Shown: positions 58,067 through 64,000 of the stretch, piece after piece
How positions within the stretch are numbered: position 1 is the first letter of the stretch
Layout: each line of letters begins with the position of its first letter
Source of the DNA: Pseudoxanthomonas suwonensis
GTDB lineage: Bacteria > Pseudomonadota > Gammaproteobacteria > Xanthomonadales > Xanthomonadaceae
Assembly: GCA_003240695.1 (NCBI GenBank)
Contig: QFNC01000009.1
Span: 31,471 to 95,470 of the forward strand
Length of the DNA: 64,000 nt
Direction: 5' to 3'
Made by a program: the position numbers and the translations under genes
The notes under the pieces: model-generated
What the model saw: only the letters and a program-made list of their open reading frames with translations
What the model was told of the DNA's origin: nothing
The model's database searches: none

Positions 58067-58130
58067 GGCGGTAGCGGTTCCGATGGCCGCGGCCCTCGCG
58101 CCGGACGCGCGCATGCGGGACAATGGCCGG

Positions 58131-58625
58131 ATGAGCAAGAAGGCATCCAAGGATAAAGCAAACGGCGGCGGCACGATCGCGCTGAACAAGCGGGCCCGCC
58201 ACGATTACCATCTGGACGAACGGGTGGAAGCCGGCATCGCCCTGCAGGGCTGGGAACTGAAGGCGATCCGTGCCGGGCGCGCCAACATCGGCGAAAGCTA
58301 TGCGGTGGTACGCAACGGCGAACTGTTCCTGTTCGGCGCGCAGATCACCCCGCTGATTTCAGCTTCCACCCACGTGCTGGCCGACGAGCGCCGCACCCGC
58401 AAGCTGCTGCTGCACCGGCGCGAGATCGACCAGCTGATCGGCCGGGTGCAGCGCGACGGCTACACGCTGATCCCCACCGCGCTGTACTGGAAAGGCAACA
58501 AGGTGAAGGCCGAGCTGGCGCTGGCCCGCGGCAAGCAGTCCCACGACAAGCGCGAGGCCAGCAAGGAACGCGACTGGAACCGCGAGAAGCAGCGCCTGCT
58601 GCGACGTCACAACAAGGACGCCTGA
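58131..58625 (+). CDS. smpB: SsrA-binding protein SmpB
   Basis: Near-identical motifs to E. coli SmpB ([26 protein letters not shown]-terminal basic tail). Confidence 0.95.
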
Positions 58626-60898
58626 GCCGATTCCTCGCCCGTCGGCGGCGGATCGGGCAGCGAGAACACGAAGCGAGCGCCCTGCCCCGGTGCCGATTCG
58701 GCACGGATGCTGCCGCCATGCCGCTCCACGATGCGCCGCACCGACGCCAGACCGATGCCGTGCCCCTCGAACTGCGCCTGGTCGTGCAGGCGCTGGAATG
58801 GCCGGAACAGCTTGTTGGCGTAGGCCGGATCGAATCCGGTGCCATTGTCGGTCAGGGCGAAACTGGGTACTTCGGCATTGACCAGCGGCTGCAGGCTGAT
58901 CCGGGCCGGATCGGCATCGCGGGTGAATTTCCAGGCGTTGTCCAGCAGATTCTGCAGCAGATTGCGCAGCAGCGCGCGATCGGCGTAGACCTGCATGCCC
59001 GGAGCGATCGACACCAGCACCTGCCGCTGCGGGTCCTGTTCGCGCAGTTCAGCGACGATGTCCTGGGCAATCGCACTCAGGTCCACCCATTCGCGATGCA
59101 GATCGCCGCGCCCCAGCCGCGAGATGGTCAGCAGTGCATCGATCAGCTCGCTCATCCGCGCCGCAGCCGCACGGATGCGGGCCAGATAGCCGCGTCCGGT
59201 GGCATCCAGCTGGCCGGCGTGGCGACTGTCCAGGATCTGGCTGAAACCGTCGATCGCGCGCAACGGTGCCCGCAAGTCGTGCGAGATGGTGTAACTGAAG
59301 GATTCCAGTTCCTTGTTGGCCAGCAACAGTTCGCGGGTGCGCAGTTGCACGCGCGTCTCCAGCGACCGGTTCAGGGCGTGGATACGGGCTTCGGCGCGCA
59401 CCCGTTCGCTCACGTCCTCCACCTGCACCAGACTGGTCACTTCAGAAGCCGGATCGCCCGGCATCGGCGCGAAGGTCAGCTGCACGGTGCGCAGCGAGCC
59501 ATCGGCATGGCGCAAGTCGCAGGTCATCCGGTGCACGCCCTCGCCCAGCGCCTGGCGCTGACCGGTGGCGAGCAGGCCGGCCGGATCGTCATCCACCAGC
59601 AATCGCGCGAACGGCAGCCTGTGCAGCTGCCCGTCGTCCATGCCGGTGATCCGAGACAGCGCGGGATTGGAGTCCATCACCCGGCCTTCCTTGTCCAGCA
59701 GGGCCTTGCCGATCGCCGAATAATGCATCGAGTTGCGGAAGCGCTGCTCGCTGCGCCGGAAGGATTCGGTCATGCGGCTGGCCATGGCCTCCGCCTGCGC
59801 ACGCGTCCGTGCCAGACTGAGAATGACCAGGAATAGCAGCAACGATGCCAGCGATCCCACCAGGATCGTGGTCCCCAGCCCGGGAATGGCACTGCTCAAC
59901 ACCGCGCGCGAGGGCGACTGGAAGTCAACGCGCCATTCGCGGCCATACGCCTGCACGGGGATGCTATGGGTGAACGCCGGGGCATCCCGATCGCCATCCG
60001 CCAGCACGGATCGGAAGGCGGGATCGGCGTAGATCATCTGCTCGTGTGCCGGTCCGACATCCACCACGCGAAGGATCATCGGTTTCGGCAAGGATCGCTG
60101 CACGCGCTGCACGAAGACGTCGGCATGGAAGGGCACATACACCCAGCCGCGCAGGCGTGCGCGCCGGGCGGCCGTGTCGGGCGGCACGTGCGCGTCGGAA
60201 TACACCGGCGAATACAGCAGCATCCCGGCGCGGTGCGCAGCGCCTGCATCCTGCACCAGATCGACCACGCCTGACAGGGTGGGAAGGCCCGTGTCGCGTG
60301 CCGCCTGCATCGCCTGGCGACGCAGCGGCTCGCTGTACATGTCGTACCCCAGCGCGATGCGATTGGCCGGCGTCGCCGGGTCCAGGAACACGATGGGCCC
60401 GTAAGCTGCGCGCTCGCCGGCCGGAACCACGCGCCACAACGGCAGTTCGCCTGCGCGGGTCATGCTGGCATCCAGGCGACGCAGGGCGGACCCGGAGTCG
60501 GCATAGGCGGCATAGCCCAGGCCGATCATCGAGGGAAACTGGCTTTCGATCTGCAAGCCGTCCGCGTAAGCCGTCCATTGCGCGCGACTGGGCTGCTCGA
60601 CCGAGCTGAACAGTGCCACGCCACCGCGGGTGATCAGTTCGATGTGGAACAGGCGCTGGCGGACCTGCGCTGCCACGGCTTCCGCATTGACCACGAATTC
60701 GCGCTGGCGCTCGCGCAGCTCGCGATCGGTCACCGAGGTCACGTACAGCGCCAGGATCGCCAGGCACGCCAGCAGTGCGACCATCGCCAGCGCGTACACG
60801 CGCCAGCTGCTTCTGGGCAAGGCAGCACGCTGGAGCACGGAATCGGCGGGCGCGGGGGACAGCATGTCCGCAAGCATAGCGGGCAACCGCACCGGCAT
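58607..60898 (-). CDS. Sensor histidine kinase with periplasmic CHASE-like domain, PAS domain, HisKA and HATPase_c (orphan)
   Basis: Two TM segments flank a ~280-aa periplasmic domain. PAS region. H-box [18 protein letters not shown]1/G2 boxes ([24 protein letters not shown]). 3' end overlaps smpB by 19 bp, convergent. Confidence 0.85.
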
Positions 60899-60987
60899 GA
60901 ACTGCAGCCCACCGTGCTTGCACATGCACTTGCAATGCAACTGCCCGAACCTATACTTCGAACCATCAGCGCTGTTTCAGGCTTCCC

Positions 60988-61341
60988 GGGGGTGCACTGG
61001 CTTCGACGGGGGTTGCGAAATTGCCTGGTGCATGCCGAGGGGGCAGCTTTCCTCGTTAATCCAGCGGCAAACAATCAGACGCCAACGACGACGTCTACGC
61101 TCTGGCCGCTTAAGGCCTAGCCCCGAACCCACTTGTGCCTGTGCTCGTGGATGTAGGGTCATCATCACAGGATGGATGCTGGCGGCGACCCGTCAACCGG
61201 CATCGAGACCAAAGCGGGTATGGATGACGGTGTGCCTCGCACGTTGTGTTGCCGCCATCCGAGATCGAACAACGGGCTAAGCATGTAGGACCGGGGATGG
61301 AGTGCCTTCGGACGGCGGTTCGATTCCGCCCACCTCCACCA
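60988..61341 (+). ncRNA. ssrA: tmRNA (ssrA); predicted tag peptide ANDDVYALAA
   Basis: 5' GGGGGUGCACUGGCUUCGACGGGGGUUGCGAAA aligns with E. coli tmRNA. The 3' tRNA-like end is GGUUCGAUUCCGCCCACCUCCACCA. The tag ORF GCCAACGACGACGTCTACGCTCTGGCCGCTTAA is at 61081-61113. Not represented in the ORF track. Confidence 0.9.
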
Positions 61342-61348
61342 AAATTGA

Positions 61349-61379
61349 AACCCCAACCGTTCTCGGTTGGGGTTTTTTC
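61349..61379 (+). terminator. Rho-independent terminator of ssrA
   Basis: CCCCAACCG-TTCTC-GGTTGGGG followed by TTTTTT. Confidence 0.85.
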
Positions 61380-61769
61380 TTGCCTGATCGCGCCGGTTCC
61401 CGCGTGTTCTTGGGGGTTCCTGCGGAAGCCTGCGGACTTCGCCAGCCGGCTGAATTGGCCGATCCGAGCCACATTTCGCTCTCTCCTAGCCATTCCTCGC
61501 TCCGACCTCGCTCCCAGGAACTGGCCCGAAGTCCGCAAAGGCCACAAACTAGCTCCATATAGATCAACAAGTTACGCGCGGACGAATCAAGCGGTTGGAT
61601 TGCGGCATTGGTTGGCGGAGGGACAACCTGGCCGCCGCCCCTCCGTTCCAATACAAGAGCGGTCGCCTTACCTCGCCTGCCCATGAATCCGCGCGAACGG
61701 ATTCTGCGCGACATGCCTGGTAGTGACGTCTTGCACGGTGCCAGGTCACCTCCAGACCGATGCCCAAAA

Positions 61770-61823
61770 TTGCGTCACACCACCATTTTGGTATAATCTA
61801 TAACGCAATGTAGTATCTATAAC
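61770..61823 (+). promoter_or_regulatory. AT-rich chrB promoter: TTGCGT-N16-TATAAT with two 9-bp direct repeats ATCTATAAC (19-bp period)
   Basis: -35 at 61770-61775 and -10 TATAAT at 61792-61797. Repeats at 61796-61804 and 61815-61823. RBS AAGGAG at 61845-61850. Confidence 0.55.
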
Positions 61824-61856
61824 ATAATACGCCGCCAATCGACCAAGGAGCCTTCC

Positions 61857-62801
61857 GTGAGCCTTCTCGCTCTTTTCGTCAGCCTGCCCACCAAGGCATC
61901 GACCGGCCGCATGCGCGTCTGGCGCTCCGTCAAGGCGCTGGGCTGCGCGACGCTGCGGGATGGGGTTTATCTGCTGCCTGACTCGGCCGATAGCGCTACG
62001 GCGCTGGATGAAGTGGCGGCGCAGTCGGTCGAGGCCGGGGGCAGCGGCGAGGTCTATCGTCTGTCGGAGTGTGAGGAAGGCCAGGAGGCCACCCTGCGCG
62101 CCCTGTTCGACCGCGGCGAGGAGTACGCCGGCATCGCCGAGGAGATCAAAGAACTCGGGCGGAGCCTAGCATCCCTGGATGGCGCCGCCGCCGCGCGCAA
62201 GCTCCAGCCACTCGTGCGCCGCTTCGAGCACGTGGCGCGCATCGATTTCTTCCCCGGCGAGGCGCAGCGGCAGACCTTGAGCCTGCTCGACGACCTGCGC
62301 GATGCGCTCACCCGCCGGCTTTCTCCCGACGAGCCGACCCCTCGGCAGGCTGACATTCCGCGACTGGAGCGCGCCGACTATCGGGGCCGTGTCTGGGCCA
62401 CGCGGGCCCGTCCGTGGGTCGACCGGCTCGCCTCGGCCTGGCTGATCCGCCGGTTTATCGACCCGAAGGCCAGCATCGTCTGGCTGGCGAGTCCCGCCGA
62501 CTGCAAAGCCGATTGGCTTGGCTTCGATTTCGACGGTGCGACGTTCAGCCACGTCGGTACCAAGGTCACCTTCGAGACGCTGCTGGCGAGTTTTGGCCTG
62601 GAGGATGACCCAGCGCTGACGCGCCTGGGCGAACTGGTGCATTGCCTGGACGTGGGCGGGCTGCCGGTATGTGAAGCGCCGGGCATCGAGCAGCTGCTCG
62701 CGGGCCTGAGAGCATCCGAATCCGACGACGACGCGTTGCTCGTTCGCGCGTGCGAAGTTTTTGATTGGCTGTTGAAGAGTTACGAGGAAAAAACAACGTG
62801 A
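61857..62801 (+). CDS. chrB: Chromate resistance regulatory protein ChrB (GTG start)
   Basis: 314 aa. ChrB-family N- and C-terminal domains (VWRSVKALGCATLRDGVYLLPD; rhodanese-like C-terminus WLIRRFIDP). Immediately upstream of chrA. Confidence 0.85.
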   Translation: MSLLALFVSLPTKASTGRMRVWRSVKALGCATLRDGVYLLPDSADSATALDEVAAQSVEAGGSGEVYRLSECEEGQEATLRALFDRGEEYAGIAEEIKELGRSLASLDGAAAARKLQPLVRRFEHVARIDFFPGEAQRQTLSLLDDLRDALTRRLSPDEPTPRQADIPRLERADYRGRVWATRARPWVDRLASAWLIRRFIDPKASIVWLASPADCKADWLGFDFDGATFSHVGTKVTFETLLASFGLEDDPALTRLGELVHCLDVGGLPVCEAPGIEQLLAGLRASESDDDALLVRACEVFDWLLKSYEEKTT

Positions 62802-64000
62802 ACGACCTGATCAGTCCTCAGACGGATGCTACGACTGAAGCCGTCCCTCCAGCGATGAACTACCCGCAGCTCTTCGTGCGTTTTCTCAAGTTCGGCTTGC
62901 TCGCATGGGGCGGGCCTGTAGCTCAGATCGCCATGTTGCGCCGCGAGCTCGTGGACGAGGAACGCTGGATCTCCAGCAAACGCTTCAACAAGCTGCTTGC
63001 GGTAATGCAAGTGCTGCCCGGACCCGAAGCACACGAAATATGCGTTCATTTGGGTATCCGAGCGAAGGGGCGGCTGGGGGGCGTACTGGCGGGACTCGGG
63101 TTCATGCTTCCCGGATTCTTGCTGATGTTCGCGCTGTCTTGGTTGTACTTCCAGATTGAACTTGTGGGTACCTCGCTGGGCGCGGCATTCCTTGGCGTGC
63201 AGGCGGCCGTGATCGCCCTGATCGTGCGTGCCGTGCACCGCATCGGCGAGCACATCCTGCTCGATCGCTGGTTGTGGGCCATTGCCATCGTTTGCGCGCT
63301 GGCAGCCATGGGTCGTGTCGACTTCTGGATCACCCTGCCGGCGGGCGGCCTTGTGTACGCCCTGCTCGTGCTGAATCATCGGGCCTTGGCACTCCTGGTG
63401 ACACTGGCGGCGGTGGCGCTGGCCGCGGCCATAGCTTTGTGGGCTGCGCCGACAGCGAAGCTGGTGGAAACGGTCGTTCAGGGCCAGGCTTCGGTGCTGC
63501 TCATCTTCGTGTCGGGCCTGAAGGCGGGCTTGCTCACCTTCGGCGGCGCCTACACGGCGATTCCGTTCGTTCGCAACGACGCCGTCGGGCGCGGATGGAT
63601 GACGGATGGGCAGTTCCTGGACGGATTGGCGCTTTCAGGTGTGCTACCGGCCCCCCTCATCATCTTCGCCACGTTCGTCGGCTATGTGGCGGGAGGACCG
63701 GTCGGGGCGGTGGCCATGACGGTCGGTGTCTTTCTTCCGGCCTTTGCGTTCTCGTTGATTTTCTACGACCGGCTGGAGGCGGTTGTGGAGAACAAACGGC
63801 TGCACGCCTTTCTGGACGGTGTCGCTGCCGGCGTAGTCGGCCTGATCGGCGCAACCACCATCGACCTAGCGCAGGTCACTGCCAATCGTGTTCCATCGCT
63901 GACGGTGGGCATGTCGATCTTCGCCGCAGCCTTGGCATTCCTTTATGCCTGGAAGAACAAGCTCAACGTCGTCGTCGTGATCCTCGCGGCGGGATTGACC
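62797..64000 (+). CDS. chrA: Chromate ion transporter ChrA (CHR family), 3'-truncated by the window end; GTG start
   Basis: Hand translation from the GTG at 62797 gives VNDLISPQTDA...FLKFGLLAWGGPVAQIAMLRRELVDEERWISSKRFNKLL...VLPGPEAH... with continuous TM helices to position 64000 and no stop. Not in the ORF track because it has no stop codon within the window. Overlaps the chrB stop (GTGA). Confidence 0.9.

What the first reader, a model, noticed from the sequence alone, without database searches (positions are those of the whole stretch)
60988..64000. Chromate-resistance island (chrB-chrA) inserted directly downstream of tmRNA, with an AT-rich promoter carrying 9-bp direct repeats
The 3' end of ssrA is a classic integration hotspot. 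Immediately after the ssrA terminator comes a ~470-bp lower-GC non-coding stretch, then chrB and chrA, which runs off the window. The chrB promoter region (61770-61823) is strikingly AT-rich for this genome. It contains a good -35/-10 pair and two ATCTATAAC repeats spaced 19 bp apart, overlapping and following the -10. These are plausible ChrB operator sites. No integrase lies between ssrA and chrB, so the island border or its integrase may lie beyond the window. Alternatively the 61380-61850 spacer is a decayed att/integrase remnant.
Basis: partly seen in the sequence, partly recalled or inferred. Interest (0 to 1): 0.55.

Follow-up and report, generated by a model that had tools for sequence, protein, structure and literature searches.

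The report
Phage-borne chromate operon at tmRNA gene
A regulated chromate-resistance operon (chrB-chrA…) sits just after the tmRNA gene because it rides as cargo in the left end of a prophage remnant of the AcaML1 type, which uses a large serine recombinase to insert at the tmRNA gene's CCA end. The parts are known kinds, but this combination appears to be undescribed.

Summary
The window holds tmRNA (60988-61341), a hairpin (61348-61375), about 480 nt with no gene, chrB (61857-62801) and chrA (from 62798, running off the window). Two exact ATCTATAAC copies lie 19 bp apart at the -10.

1. **The spacer is not decayed.** Positions 61342 to about 61620 are a conserved roughly 275-nt attachment arm. 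It follows at least 46 different tmRNA genes in metagenomes and is homologous to the left end of the temperate phage AcaML1, which is published as integrating in the tmRNA gene.
2. **The integrase is a large serine recombinase.** It comes with a small subunit and a DUF2924 protein. Two near-identical sister islands exist in hosts whose tmRNA genes are only 55-61% identical; in the one whose downstream sequence is held (L014), this module lies just beyond chrBACF-MFS. In the window's own lineage it is replaced by IS3 and ISL3 elements, followed by a Fic gene and the phage's right-end arm. This copy is therefore a prophage remnant.
3. **The 9-mers belong to larger units.** Each is part of a 14-bp unit (GTAKWATCTATAAC) of the GTAG-N6-CTAC type. 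This unit is paired at 19-20 bp spacing in chrB promoters across the family, including the Ochrobactrum tritici promoter fragment shown to bind ChrB.

I rate this a new member of known kinds, of moderate interest.

The parts
60930..60957 (+). sigma-70-like promoter candidate for ssrA (TTGCAA, 16-nt spacer, TATACT)
   Evidence: Consensus scan. It lies 30 nt upstream of the tmRNA 5' end. Not tested further.
60988..61341 (+). tmRNA gene (ssrA), tag ANDDVYALAA; host-derived up to its CCA end
   Evidence: ARAGORN and Rfam RF00023, 189.5 bits. The whole gene, T-arm included, differs from the tmRNA genes of the other chr-island hosts (60% and 55% identity).
61336..61342 (+). Presumed crossover core CCACCA(A), shared by attL, attR and attP-like junctions
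   Evidence: It is the only block common to three junction types: tmRNA end plus arm (46 or more loci), right-end arm plus arm, and right-end arm plus native terminator. AcaML1 is reported with 10-bp direct repeats at srrA (PMC3826726). The exact crossover position is inferred.
61348..61375 (+). Phage-supplied hairpin AAACCCCAACCG-TTCT-CGGTTGGGGTTT followed by T6. It looks like an intrinsic terminator readable from both sides. Alternatively it is part of the recombination site.
   Evidence: It is conserved downstream of many different tmRNA genes. Pairing is kept by changes on both sides in AcaML1, Ralstonia and Massilia copies (alignment A4).
61342..61620 (+). Conserved left attachment arm (the attL/P' arm) of an AcaML1-like prophage family that carries a large serine recombinase
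   Evidence: It is 80-92% identical in most of the 115 metagenome loci that contain it. It is 78.6% identical to the copy in Ralstonia solanacearum, which lies directly beside the small-subunit and recombinase genes. It is homologous to the first roughly 300 nt of the AcaML1 genome record.
61431..61441 (+). TGCGGACTTCG, left arm of an inverted repeat that is nearly invariant within the attachment arm
   Evidence: the repeat finder pair I2. Conserved at 95% or more at most columns across 54 distinct arm copies, all above 60%. Function unknown; a protein-binding site is a guess.
61527..61537 (+). CGAAGTCCGCA, right arm of the same inverted repeat
61621..61756 (+). Distal arm extension and junction with the chr cargo
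   Evidence: Positions 61346-61734 also align at 78.7% with L135, a tmRNA-linked locus where no chr match was seen. Homology to chr modules elsewhere starts at about 61757-61798. The cargo junction therefore lies at about 61735-61760.
61770..61797 (+). chr promoter: -35 TTGCGT (61770-61775), TG (61789-61790), -10 TATAAT (61792-61797)
   Evidence: Read directly from the sequence. It aligns with TTGACG-N-TATTAG/TTTAAC in plasmid chr modules. In O. tritici the promoter lies within -90 to +1 of chrB (PMC3817168).
61791..61804 (+). Operator-like unit 1, GTATAATCTATAAC; it overlaps the -10
   Evidence: It is the upstream member of a conserved pair.
61810..61823 (+). Operator-like unit 2, GTAGTATCTATAAC (6 of 8 matches to GTAG-N6-CTAC)
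   Evidence: It is homologous to the GTAGTAACATCTAC unit in the O. tritici promoter fragment that binds ChrB.
61845..61850 (+). Shine-Dalgarno sequence AAGGAG, 6 nt before the GTG start of chrB
   Evidence: Sequence. AAGGAG is conserved in all aligned chr modules.
61857..62801 (+). chrB, the chromate-responsive regulator (314 aa); R18 and R23 are present
   Evidence: Pfam ChrB_C at 2e-42 and ChrB_N at 1.8e-07. R18 and R23 are present; they are the residues whose mutation made O. tritici ChrB constitutive.
62798..64000 (+). chrA, the chromate efflux transporter. The window holds 401 of 410 codons. In the same lineage it is followed by chrC (Fe-SOD), chrF (ChrB_C domain) and a truncated MFS gene.
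   Evidence: Pfam Chromate_transp, two stretches, 1.8e-71. Downstream genes come from L001, L003 and L004.

Best explanation
The region is the left (attL) end of a degenerate prophage of the AcaML1 type, carrying a complete chromate-resistance operon as cargo.

**How it got there.** Phages of this family carry an attP made of three parts: a right-end arm that mimics the ssrA 3' end, the core CCACCA(A), and a conserved left arm of about 275 nt that begins with a terminator hairpin. Their large serine recombinase works with a small subunit and a DUF2924 protein. It recombines attP with the CCA end of the host tmRNA gene. The host gene stays intact and now ends in the phage's hairpin. The arm and then the phage genome follow.

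**Where the cargo sits.** Between the arm and the small-subunit gene there is a variable cargo slot. Here it holds a chr module of about 4.7 kb: promoter, chrB, chrA, chrC, chrF and an MFS gene. The same module is about 89% identical on Pseudomonas and Stutzerimonas plasmids.

**State in this lineage.** IS3 and ISL3 elements truncate the MFS gene and stand where the recombinase and replication modules lie in L014, so those modules appear to have been lost. What is left is about 8.6 kb: arm, chrBACF, a truncated MFS gene, the IS elements, an HTH_17 gene, a Fic gene and the right-end arm. A second arm follows, so there is a tandem array. The element can no longer move by itself.

**Expression (inferred).** ChrB binds two dyad-like 14-bp units spaced 19 bp apart. 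One overlaps the extended-10 promoter and the other lies just downstream of it. Binding represses chrBACF until chromate is sensed.

**What is shown and what is inferred.** Shown: the anatomy, the homology, the horizontal distribution and the conservation of the paired units. Inferred: catalysis by the serine recombinase, the exact crossover point, ChrB binding to these particular units, and the resistance phenotype.
For: **1. Horizontal origin.**
- The tmRNA genes of the three chr-island hosts are 55-61% identical, while 2,653 nt of island are 98.2-99.9% identical.
- High identity between the window and L014 begins at the hairpin, 6 nt after the CCA.

**2. The arm belongs to a mobile element.**
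- An exact core-plus-hairpin pattern occurs in 115 metagenome stretches, and the following roughly 270 nt are 80-92% identical in most of them.
- 46 of these loci have a complete tmRNA gene ending at the core, with 11 different tag peptides. One lies at a tRNA-Met gene.
- Tandem arrays occur (L202, L101). True attR junctions lead into unrelated native terminators (L123, L200, L305, L307, L308, L310, L312).

**3. Backbone next to the arm.**
- The gene order is small subunit (143-149 aa), serine recombinase (451 aa; Resolvase, Recombinase and Zn_ribbon_recom domains), DUF2924, then M78 peptidase and HTH_3 genes (with a 404-aa gene before them in some copies), then a phage replication module.
- In R. 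solanacearum the arm starts 17 nt after the small-subunit gene, with no cargo. Massilia has other cargo in that slot. In L014 the slot holds chrBACF-MFS, followed by the full backbone.

**4. Link to a characterised phage.**
- The recombinase is 57% identical to AcaML1 Gp3. The small subunit matches Gp2 (E 2e-12) and the DUF2924 protein matches Gp4 (43% identity).
- The AcaML1 genome record starts with CCACCA, a hairpin and a homologous arm, and ends with a pseudo-ssrA 3' end.
- AcaML1 is published as an inducible phage integrated in the tmRNA gene, with 10-bp direct repeats (PMC3826726).
The best 80 are at 87% identity or more, and many come from contigs of 37-60 kb.

**5. State in this lineage.**
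- L004 is 100% identical to the window. L001 has the same chromosomal context. Both continue into L003, which reads chrA, chrC, chrF, truncated MFS, IS3, ISL3, HTH_17, Fic, right-end arm and a second arm.
- The Fic and HTH_17 genes next to a right-end arm and a true attR recur in a viral contig, L312, at 87.5% and 80% identity.

**6. Operator.**
- The pair of GTAG-N6-CTAC-like units is a family-wide feature. 27 of 64 distinct chrB upstream regions score 12 or more of 16, against a shuffle mean of 0.46 and maximum of 3.
- Spacing is 20 bp in 22 of these and 19 bp in the window's clade.
- The promoter is homologous to plasmid chr promoters.
- The O. tritici data fit: the fragment -90 to +1 binds ChrB, the promoter is constitutive without chrB, and R18 and R23 are needed for repression.
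Against: - No recombinase gene lies in the window or in any contig of this lineage. The link to the serine recombinase therefore rests on sister copies and on the shared arms.
- The window's own contig beyond 64000 could not be fetched. The downstream structure comes from metagenome contigs that are 99.5-100% identical over their overlap.
- No member of this 86-97% identical recombinase clade has been tested. A tyrosine integrase further inside the roughly 40-kb phage cannot be formally excluded, because only 10 kb either side of the recombinase gene was visible.
- Large serine recombinases normally need no long arm, so the conservation of 275 nt is unexplained.
- The window's operator pair scores only 11 of 16 against the dyad consensus.
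- In O. tritici a 3-nt mutation in the repeat region did not abolish ChrB binding in EMSA, so the exact operator is still undefined experimentally.
- Whether the chr-bearing sister prophages are complete and inducible is unknown.
Confidence: 0.8

Rival explanations
1. This is a classical tRNA/tmRNA genomic island moved by a tyrosine (P4-type) integrase. The integrase would lie beyond the window, or the spacer would be its decayed remnant.
For: ssrA is a well-known target of tyrosine-integrase islands (PMC4383910). Some left flanks in the metagenome set look like longer displaced ssrA 3' fragments, which shows that other island types also use this site.
Against: - No ORF in 61110-61796 hits any Pfam family.
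- The spacer is a conserved non-coding arm. Wherever enough sequence is held, it lies next to a serine-recombinase module, directly or across a cargo gap.
- No Phage_integrase domain appears among the called genes within 10 kb of the recombinase in Ralstonia, Massilia or Nitrosomonas.
- The block shared by all junction types is only about 7 bp plus phage-derived sequence. It is not a 20-50-nt ssrA fragment.
Confidence: 0.05
2. The chr genes arrived by transposition of a Tn3-family chr transposon, of the TnOtChr or pUM505 type, that happened to land beside ssrA.
For: The chrBACF-MFS module is 85-90% identical to modules on Pseudomonas and Stutzerimonas plasmids. There it sits next to Tn3 tnpA/tnpR or Tn402 tni genes.
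Against: - There is no tnpA, tnpR or recognisable terminal inverted repeat in the window or in L014.
- Homology to the plasmid modules stops at the promoter (about 61757-61798) on the left and near the MFS stop codon on the right.
- The module occupies the same slot that holds unrelated cargo in other members of the phage family.
- How the cargo entered the slot is unknown, so an old transposition followed by loss of the transposon ends cannot be excluded for the capture step itself.
Confidence: 0.07
3. The locus is ancestral. The arm would be a host-encoded element conserved downstream of ssrA, and chrBA a chromosomal gene pair inherited vertically.
For: Every Xanthomonadales-like relative recovered also has an arm after ssrA (L120, L172, L197, L224). 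That recovery was biased, because the search pattern required the arm.
Against: - The island is 98-99.9% identical across hosts whose tmRNA genes are 55-61% identical.
- The arm is also the first sequence of a phage genome record.
- It occurs in tandem copies, at a tRNA-Met gene, and in beta- and gammaproteobacterial organisms and MAGs.
- attR junctions show different native terminators.
Confidence: 0.02
4. The two ATCTATAAC copies are not ChrB operators. They would be a by-product of an AT-rich promoter, for example a duplicated -10-like sequence, or sites for another factor.
For: - Unit 1 contains the -10 itself.
- The window's units match the family dyad at only 5 and 6 of 8 positions.
- In O. 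tritici, mutating 3 nt of the repeat abolished expression but not ChrB binding. That fits the mutated bases being promoter elements.
Against: - The 9-mer is unexpected by chance (0 matches in 100 shuffles).
- The two-unit layout with fixed 19-20 bp spacing is kept from ChrB proteins 50% identical up to 99% identical, while the surrounding sequence is not alignable.
- In most relatives both units lie downstream of any -10 position, at -37 and -17 from the start codon. That does not suit a promoter element.
Confidence: 0.12

Closest known systems
Integration module of Acidithiobacillus phage AcaML1 (JX507079): Gp4 (DUF2924-like), Gp3 'site specific recombinase large subunit', Gp2 'small subunit'. 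The phage integrates in the tmRNA gene (srrA).
   Same: - The gene order next to the att site is the same. The proteins are homologous: recombinase 57% identical, DUF2924 protein 43%, small subunit 33% over 87 residues.
- The left end is the same: CCACCA, a hairpin and a homologous arm.
- The right end carries a pseudo-ssrA 3' end.
- The target is the same, with short direct repeats (PMC3826726).
   Different: - The clade here is a distinct, very tightly conserved group. Its recombinases are 86-97% identical to each other across Ralstonia, Massilia, Comamonas, Nitrosomonas and other genera.
- The window's host is annotated as a Pseudoxanthomonas suwonensis MAG.
- Most copies use a different right-end arm (GGTTTGGCGCAGGGTTCCACCCCACCACCA).
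- The slot next to the arm holds a metal-resistance operon.
- The window's copy has lost the recombinase.
chrBACF determinant of TnOtChr (Ochrobactrum tritici 5bvl1) and the chr genes of plasmid pUM505, with the ChrB-controlled promoter (Branco and Morais 2013, PMC3817168)
   Same: - The gene order is chrB, chrA, chrC, chrF, and chrB and chrA overlap, as in O. tritici.
- ChrB has the ChrB_N and ChrB_C domains and retains R18 and R23.
- The promoter is AT-rich, with repeated GTAG...CTAC-type units close to the start codon.
- The DNA is about 89% identical to the pUM505 and other Pseudomonas plasmid modules.
   Different: - The vehicle is a prophage arm at ssrA, not a Tn3-family transposon.
- The units lie at -66 and -47 with 19-bp spacing and overlap the -10. 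In O. tritici and most distant relatives they lie at -37 and -17 with 20-bp spacing.
- An MFS gene follows chrF.
- The published paper reads the motif as one 12-bp imperfect inverted repeat with a 9-bp linker. The comparison here favours two tandem 14-bp dyads.
ssrA-specific genomic islands of Dehalococcoides carrying vinyl-chloride reductase genes (McMurdie et al. 2011, PMC3146451)
   Same: [quoted passage not shown] My search terms for serine recombinase occur in that paper's text.
   Different: They occur in an unrelated phylum, and no sequence relationship was tested here. The comparison is an analogy in mechanism only. I read only the abstract and the term counts; the detailed look-up failed.
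Tyrosine-integrase islands and prophages at tmRNA genes (Islander/TIGER catalogues; Williams, 'Traffic at the tmRNA gene')
   Same: The target gene is the same, islands can stack in tandem, and the element restores the target gene (PMC4383910 and PMC7192596).
   Different: The recombinase family is different. The crossover lies at the very CCA end, and only about 7-10 bp are shared between the sites. These islands instead duplicate a longer 3' fragment of the gene.

Membership tests
chrBACF chromate-resistance determinant (CHR superfamily, TnOtChr type) | ChrB regulator with an N-terminal ChrB_N domain and a C-terminal ChrB_C domain | tested here: met
   Pfam PF20229 at 1.8e-07 and PF09828 at 2e-42, both above the curated cut-offs.
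chrBACF chromate-resistance determinant (CHR superfamily, TnOtChr type) | Long-chain ChrA with two Chromate_transp domains, translationally coupled to chrB | tested here: met
   PF02417 at 1.8e-71 with two stretches. The GTGA start/stop overlap lies at 62798-62801. The full length is 410 aa in L004.
chrBACF chromate-resistance determinant (CHR superfamily, TnOtChr type) | chrC (Fe/Mn superoxide dismutase) and chrF (a ChrB_C-only protein) lie downstream | tested here: met
   Sod_Fe_C (199 aa) and ChrB_C (151 aa) genes follow chrA in L001, L003, L004 and L005, which are 99.5-100% identical to the window over their overlap. They lie outside the window.
chrBACF chromate-resistance determinant (CHR superfamily, TnOtChr type) | Promoter that is induced by chromate and repressed by ChrB | not testable with these tools
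   Only comparative support is available: the promoter is homologous to others, the paired units are conserved, and experiments exist for O. tritici.
chrBACF chromate-resistance determinant (CHR superfamily, TnOtChr type) | Carried by a Tn3-family transposon (tnpA, tnpR and terminal inverted repeats), as in TnOtChr and pUM505 | tested here: not met
   No transposase or resolvase lies beside chrB in the window or in L014. Upstream are ssrA and the phage arm. This feature defines the vehicle, not the operon.
AcaML1-like temperate phages integrating at ssrA with a large serine recombinase | Insertion exactly at the 3' CCA end of the tmRNA gene, which stays intact | tested here: met
   The tmRNA gene is complete to its CCA at 61341. 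Similarity between the elements starts at 61342-61348.
AcaML1-like temperate phages integrating at ssrA with a large serine recombinase | Conserved left arm (hairpin plus about 270 nt) homologous to the left end of the phage genome | tested here: met
AcaML1-like temperate phages integrating at ssrA with a large serine recombinase | Operon of serine recombinase, small subunit and DUF2924 protein adjacent to the arm | tested here: not met
   It is absent from the window and from L001, L003 and L004, where IS3 and ISL3 take its place. It is present in the sister chr island L014 and in at least 18 other arm-linked loci counted. The window's copy is therefore a remnant, not a functional member.
AcaML1-like temperate phages integrating at ssrA with a large serine recombinase | Right end carrying a pseudo-ssrA 3' end that finishes in CCACCA | tested here: met
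   L003 8427-8455, from the same lineage. The same type of arm precedes true attR sites in viral contigs. AcaML1 has its own variant.
AcaML1-like temperate phages integrating at ssrA with a large serine recombinase | Phage replication and structural genes; inducibility | tested here: inconclusive
   A replication module (Sak4-like protein, helicase, Cas4 exonuclease, primase, RuvC) is present in full-length relatives. The backbone Sak4-like (AAA_24) protein matches hundreds of contigs of the IMG/VR viral collection. Structural genes were not reached within the 10-kb flanks. None of this is present in the window's 8.6-kb remnant.
Tyrosine-integrase tRNA/tmRNA genomic islands | A Phage_integrase-family gene next to one att site | tested here: not met

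The most novel reading that the evidence does not exclude
A very widespread and tightly conserved family of temperate phages in Beta- and Gammaproteobacteria integrates at the CCA end of ssrA through a large serine recombinase. Between its attachment arm and the recombinase operon it has a defined cargo slot. That slot can hold a complete, self-regulated heavy-metal resistance operon (chrBACF-MFS). If so, chromate resistance would spread by lysogeny, not only by plasmids and transposons. The same att arms also bracket tiny elements of about 1.8 kb that carry only a Fic gene and no recombinase. These presumably hitchhike on the phage recombinase and build tandem arrays at ssrA.
Probability: 0.45. 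Interest if true: 0.55.

Novelty: new member of a known kind. Interest (0 to 1): 0.4.

Why it matters
**Vehicle for chromate resistance.** Chromate-resistance operons of this type are described on plasmids and Tn3-family transposons. Here the same operon is cargo of a prophage family whose backbone Sak4-like (AAA_24) protein is found in hundreds of contigs of a viral-contig collection. Near-identical copies occur in three hosts with very different tmRNA genes. That points to lysogeny as a route for spreading metal resistance. My searches of the held literature found no report of it, but those searches were not exhaustive.

**Annotation.** The 275-nt arm after ssrA is a simple, searchable marker of these elements. 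It also explains why metagenome assemblies break there.

**ChrB biosensors and regulation.** The comparison gives a concrete, testable operator model: two GTAG-N6-CTAC dyads 19-20 bp apart. The only experimental paper left the operator undefined.

None of this changes a major concept. The parts are known kinds.

Tried and rejected
1. **A decayed second copy of the ssrA 3' end just upstream of the chr promoter.** The candidate was CACCTCCA at 61747 plus CCAAAATTG at 61764, collinear with 61331-61347. I rejected it. The 9-mer aligns with the -35 region of plasmid chr promoters (CCTTAAATTGAC). That leaves only an 8-mer, which is at chance level.

2. **L014 as the source genome of the window.** It is not. 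It matches only from 61276 onward and has a different tmRNA gene. This turned out to be the key comparison.

3. **My first reading that the island junction lies inside ssrA at 61276.** That was the BLAST boundary. The base-by-base alignment shows that the T-arms differ and that high identity starts at the hairpin.

4. **Fetching the window's own contig beyond 64000.**
   - The exact SmpB and histidine kinase proteins returned only short contigs.

5. **Rfam search of 60700-62000 at E<=1.** Nothing beyond the tmRNA reached a gathering score.

6. **Looking for a structured RNA in the arm.** Consensus folding of 54 arm copies on both strands gave only the hairpin and an invariant long-range inverted repeat. 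No covariation was evident from the conservation profile, so an RNA gene can be neither claimed nor excluded.

7. **Pfam search of all spacer ORFs** for an integrase remnant found none.

8. **Literature searches** for a described proteobacterial ssrA element with a serine recombinase and DUF2924 protein found only AcaML1 and the Dehalococcoides islands. A search for phage-borne chrA found no direct report.

9. **The Tapia et al. 2012 AcaML1 genome paper** is not held in the library.

Full report
**1. What is in the window**

ARAGORN and Rfam agree on a tmRNA gene at 60988-61341 (+), with tag ANDDVYALAA. Upstream lie smpB (58116-58625, +) and a CHASE-PAS histidine kinase gene (58607-60940, -). 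Six bases after the CCA end comes a perfect 12+4+12 hairpin (61348-61375) followed by a T run.

chrB is 61857-62801 and carries the ChrB_N and ChrB_C domains. chrA starts at GTG 62798, overlapping the chrB stop as GTGA, has two Chromate_transp stretches and leaves the window.

The 481 nt between the hairpin and chrB have GC 0.574, against 0.666 for the window. Positions 61770-61830 have GC 0.328. No ORF in this stretch hits any Pfam family.

ATCTATAAC occurs exactly twice in 64 kb, at 61796 and 61815, and none of 100 shuffles gave a match. The two copies sit inside a 19-nt tandem repeat.

The -10 is a perfect TATAAT with an upstream TG. The -35 (TTGCGT) matches only 3 of 6 positions, so "a good -35/-10 pair" is half right.

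Four contigs (L001, L002, L004, L006), assembled from four separate samples, span the kinase gene, ssrA, the spacer and chrB at 98.9-100% identity. The junction is therefore not an assembly artefact. Exact protein look-ups place the window in a MAG annotated as Pseudoxanthomonas suwonensis.

**2. What follows the window**

Contigs carrying the identical ChrB continue with chrA (410 aa), chrC (Fe-SOD), chrF (a ChrB_C-only protein of 151 aa) and an MFS gene. The MFS gene is cut short at 253 aa by an IS3-family element. Then come a split ISL3 transposase gene, a 70-aa HTH_17 gene and a 448-aa Fic gene (DUF4172 plus Fic domains).

L004 is 100% identical to the window and shares the IS3 junction. 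L001 has the window's chromosomal context and is 100% identical to L003 over 4.7 kb.

L003 ends with a 46-nt copy of window 61333-61378, with 3 mismatches. This copy covers CCACCA, six bases and the hairpin. It is preceded by GTCGTTTGATGCGGGGTACCATCCCA, which looks like a shortened T-arm and acceptor end.

**3. The island is acquired**

A scan of species-representative genomes with ChrB found a MAG contig, L014 (Gammaproteobacteria bacterium QR_Bin.12). It matches the window only from inside ssrA onward and has a different tmRNA gene, tag ANDETYALAA. The base-by-base alignment shows that the two tmRNA genes differ throughout, T-arm included. Near-identity begins at the hairpin.

A third host, L144 (tag ANDDSYALAA), has the same arrangement. 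Across the three hosts the tmRNA genes are 55-61% identical, while 2,653 nt of island are 98.2-99.9% identical.

Elsewhere the chr module appears in other contexts:
- ChrB proteins 95% identical occur in Pollutimonas, Luteimonas, Roseateles and Piscinibacter, with no tmRNA gene in the sequence fetched around chrB.
- The DNA is about 89% identical on Pseudomonas and Stutzerimonas plasmids, including pUM505. There it lies next to Tn3 or Tn402 transposition genes.

Homology to all of those starts only at about 61757-61798, in the promoter. The region 61342-61756 therefore belongs to something else.

**4. The spacer is a conserved attachment arm**

I scanned metagenome contigs with an exact pattern covering the core and hairpin (CCACCAAWAWYG followed by the hairpin). 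It found 115 stretches. In most of them the next 270 nt or so are 80-92% identical to window 61346-61615.

Forty-six of these loci have a complete tmRNA gene ending at the core, with 11 different tag peptides. One locus sits at a tRNA-Met gene.

Other loci have, to the left of the core, a conserved non-tmRNA sequence (...GGTTTGGCGCAGGGTTCCACCCCA|CCACCA). This is the type seen at the end of L003, and I call it the right-end arm. In L123 and L200, and in five viral contigs, this arm is followed by unrelated native terminators. Those are true attR junctions. In the remaining loci it is followed by the left arm again, which means tandem arrays or attP. L202 has three arms about 2.6 kb apart.

Metagenome contigs of the window's own lineage break at 61473-61620, within the arm or at its end. 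Breaks of this kind are expected for a repeat shared by several elements in one sample.

**5. What the arm belongs to**

Next to the arm, after a gap of variable length, a fixed gene set recurs:
- a 143-149-aa gene;
- a 451-aa large serine recombinase (Resolvase, Recombinase and Zn_ribbon_recom domains);
- a DUF2924 gene;
- in some copies a 404-aa gene;
- an M78 peptidase gene and an HTH_3 gene.

A divergent operon follows, encoding a Sak4-like annealing protein, a helicase, a Cas4-type exonuclease, a primase/helicase, a RuvC-like resolvase and a ParB-methyltransferase.

The recombinase is 86-97% identical across Ralstonia solanacearum, Massilia, Limnobacter, Comamonas, Polaromonas, Ramlibacter, Ferrovum and Nitrosomonas.

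The variable gap behaves as a cargo slot:
- In R. solanacearum the arm begins 17 nt after the small gene, with ssrA right behind it, so the slot is empty.
- In Massilia putida the slot holds three unrelated genes.
- In other loci it holds a GNAT toxin pair or several large ORFs that I did not annotate.
- In L014 it holds chrBACF-MFS, followed by the complete backbone.

The best 80 are at 87% identity or more, and many come from contigs of 37-60 kb.

**6. Link to a characterised phage**

The nearest sequenced phage is Acidithiobacillus phage AcaML1. Its Gp3 ("site specific recombinase large subunit") is 57% identical to the recombinase here. Gp2 ("small subunit") matches the 142-aa protein (E 2e-12), and Gp4 matches the DUF2924 protein at 43% identity.

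The AcaML1 genome record begins with CCACCA, a hairpin whose stem differs but still pairs, and TTTTTTCTTGCGCGTTCCCCGCGTGTT.... This aligns with the window's arm. The record ends with ...GGACGCGGGTTCGGTTCCGTGTTCCGCCACCA, a pseudo-ssrA 3' end that is also one of the left-flank classes in my metagenome set.

The best-supported reading is therefore as follows. Positions 61336-61620 form the attL of an AcaML1-like phage. The chr operon is cargo in the slot next to attL. The window's lineage keeps only a remnant of about 8.6 kb: arm, chr genes, IS elements, HTH_17, Fic and the right-end arm. Another arm follows it.

The pairing of Fic and HTH_17 genes with a right-end arm and a true attR recurs in a 34-kb viral contig, at 87.5% and 80% protein identity. 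I therefore take the right end of L003 to be a genuine phage end.

Three points remain inferred:
- that the serine recombinase is the integrase; no tyrosine integrase was seen within 10 kb of it, but whole elements were not visible;
- that the crossover lies within CCACCA(A);
- why 275 nt of arm are conserved. The arm holds an invariant inverted repeat (TGCGGACTTCG and CGAAGTCCGCA) and further GCGGAC copies, which may bind the small subunit.

**7. The promoter and the repeats**

The window's promoter aligns with those of the plasmid chr modules from about 61757. The -35 hexamer corresponds to TTGACG, and the two repeat units and the AAGGAG ribosome-binding site are conserved.

I extracted the 110 nt upstream of chrB from 77 loci, which gave 64 distinct sequences from ChrB proteins 50-99% identical. 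These show a recurring 14-bp unit, GTAG-N6-CTAC:
- With up to 2 mismatches allowed per unit, 21 of the 64 sequences have a pair at 18-22 bp. The spacing is 20 bp in 18 of the 24 pairs counted, and the units usually lie at -37 and -17 from the start codon.
- Scored as a pair, 27 of 64 reach 12 or more of 16 matches, against a shuffle mean of 0.46 and a maximum of 3.

The window's units are GTATAATCTATAAC (61791-61804, overlapping the -10) and GTAGTATCTATAAC (61810-61823). They score 11 of 16 and occupy the same aligned positions as higher-scoring pairs in its clade, with 19-bp spacing.

The sequence published for O. tritici (GTAGATCTTATCTC ATTATT GTAGTAACATCTAC, at -37 to -4) fits the -37/-17 layout. 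In that system:
- the -90 to +1 fragment binds ChrB in EMSA;
- the promoter is constitutive without chrB and chromate-inducible with it;
- R18A and R23A make expression constitutive (PMC3817168).

R18 and R23 are present in the window's ChrB. The operator idea is therefore well supported by comparison. It is not proven, because a 3-nt mutation in the O. tritici repeat did not abolish binding.

**8. Comparison with what is known, and novelty**

The operon is a member of the chrBACF family; every sequence-level defining feature is met. Its vehicle is not the Tn3-type transposon known for that family.

The integration system is related to AcaML1's, but the window's copy fails the membership test for a functional element because it lacks the recombinase.

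My literature searches found no description of this proteobacterial clade of ssrA elements with a serine recombinase, of its cargo slot, or of a phage-borne chrBACF. Absence from the held library is weak evidence.

I rate the finding as a new member of known kinds with moderate interest (0.4). The more novel reading is that chromate resistance spreads by lysogeny and that recombinase-less Fic mini-elements hitchhike on the same att sites. That reading is open at roughly even odds.

Noticed in passing
window 58607-60940 (-), compared with L172 1662-2840 and L197 9120-10922: The CHASE-PAS histidine kinase gene lies between smpB and ssrA and overlaps the smpB 3' end by 19 nt. In Xanthomonadales-like relatives with the same tmRNA tag, about 57 nt separate the end of the smpB match from the start of the ssrA match in L172. 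The kinase gene therefore looks like a lineage-specific insertion.
   Followed up: partly
L200 49-1920, L123, L202 2065-7700, L101 and L153: Some elements consist only of the left arm, one Fic gene (374-377 aa, minus strand) and the right-end arm. They are about 1.8-2.6 kb, have no recombinase, and are bounded by attL and a true attR or stacked in arrays of two or three. They may be non-autonomous elements mobilised in trans by the phage recombinase.
   Followed up: partly
window 61431-61441 and 61527-61537; also 61573-61605: An inverted repeat (TGCGGACTTCG and CGAAGTCCGCA) and a third GCGGAC copy (TTACGCGCGGACGAATCAAGCGGTTGGATTGC) are conserved at 95% or more at most columns (all above 60%) in 54 distinct arm copies. 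This is more conservation than a serine-recombinase att site should need. The function is unknown; they may be binding sites for the small subunit or part of an RNA.
   Followed up: partly
L150 9202-9320: One copy of the core and arm follows a tRNA-Met(CAT) gene instead of a tmRNA gene. This suggests the recombinase recognises a generic ...CCACCA acceptor end.
   Followed up: no
window 61473-61620 (starts of L003, L005, L007, L008, L010): Five of the ten contigs carrying the identical ChrB protein start inside the arm or at its end. This is the pattern expected when several related elements in one sample share the arm, and it is a practical warning for binning and assembly at ssrA loci.
   Followed up: partly
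chrB upstream regions of L066-L093, and O. tritici (PMC3817168): Across distant ChrB homologues the promoter carries two GTAG-N6-CTAC dyads at exactly -37 and -17 from the start codon. The published description is a single 12-bp imperfect inverted repeat with a 9-bp linker. The two-dyad reading fits the comparative data better.
   Followed up: yes
L003 3653-4414 versus L012 6311-7525 and L014 13221-14519: The MFS transporter gene that follows chrF is 404-432 aa on the plasmids and in L014. In the window's lineage an IS3-family insertion truncates it to 253 aa.
   Followed up: partly
L312 13-8071 and L305 20-5826 (left of right-end arms): Next to the Fic gene, the right ends of these prophages carry large genes that look like defence or restriction systems. 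One example is a 527-aa protein whose N-terminal sequence, by eye, resembles a histidine-kinase-type ATPase; I did not annotate them. Both phage ends may be cargo hot spots.
   Followed up: no
L098, L108, L137, L179, L182-L184, L199, L201, L204, L208, L222, L223 (left flank of the core): A second class of right-end arm, ...GGACGCGGGTTCGGTTCCGTGTTCC(A/G)|CCACCA, matches the right end of the AcaML1 record. Phages with the AcaML1-type end and phages with the GGTTTGGCGCAGGG-type end therefore stack next to the same left arms.
   Followed up: partly
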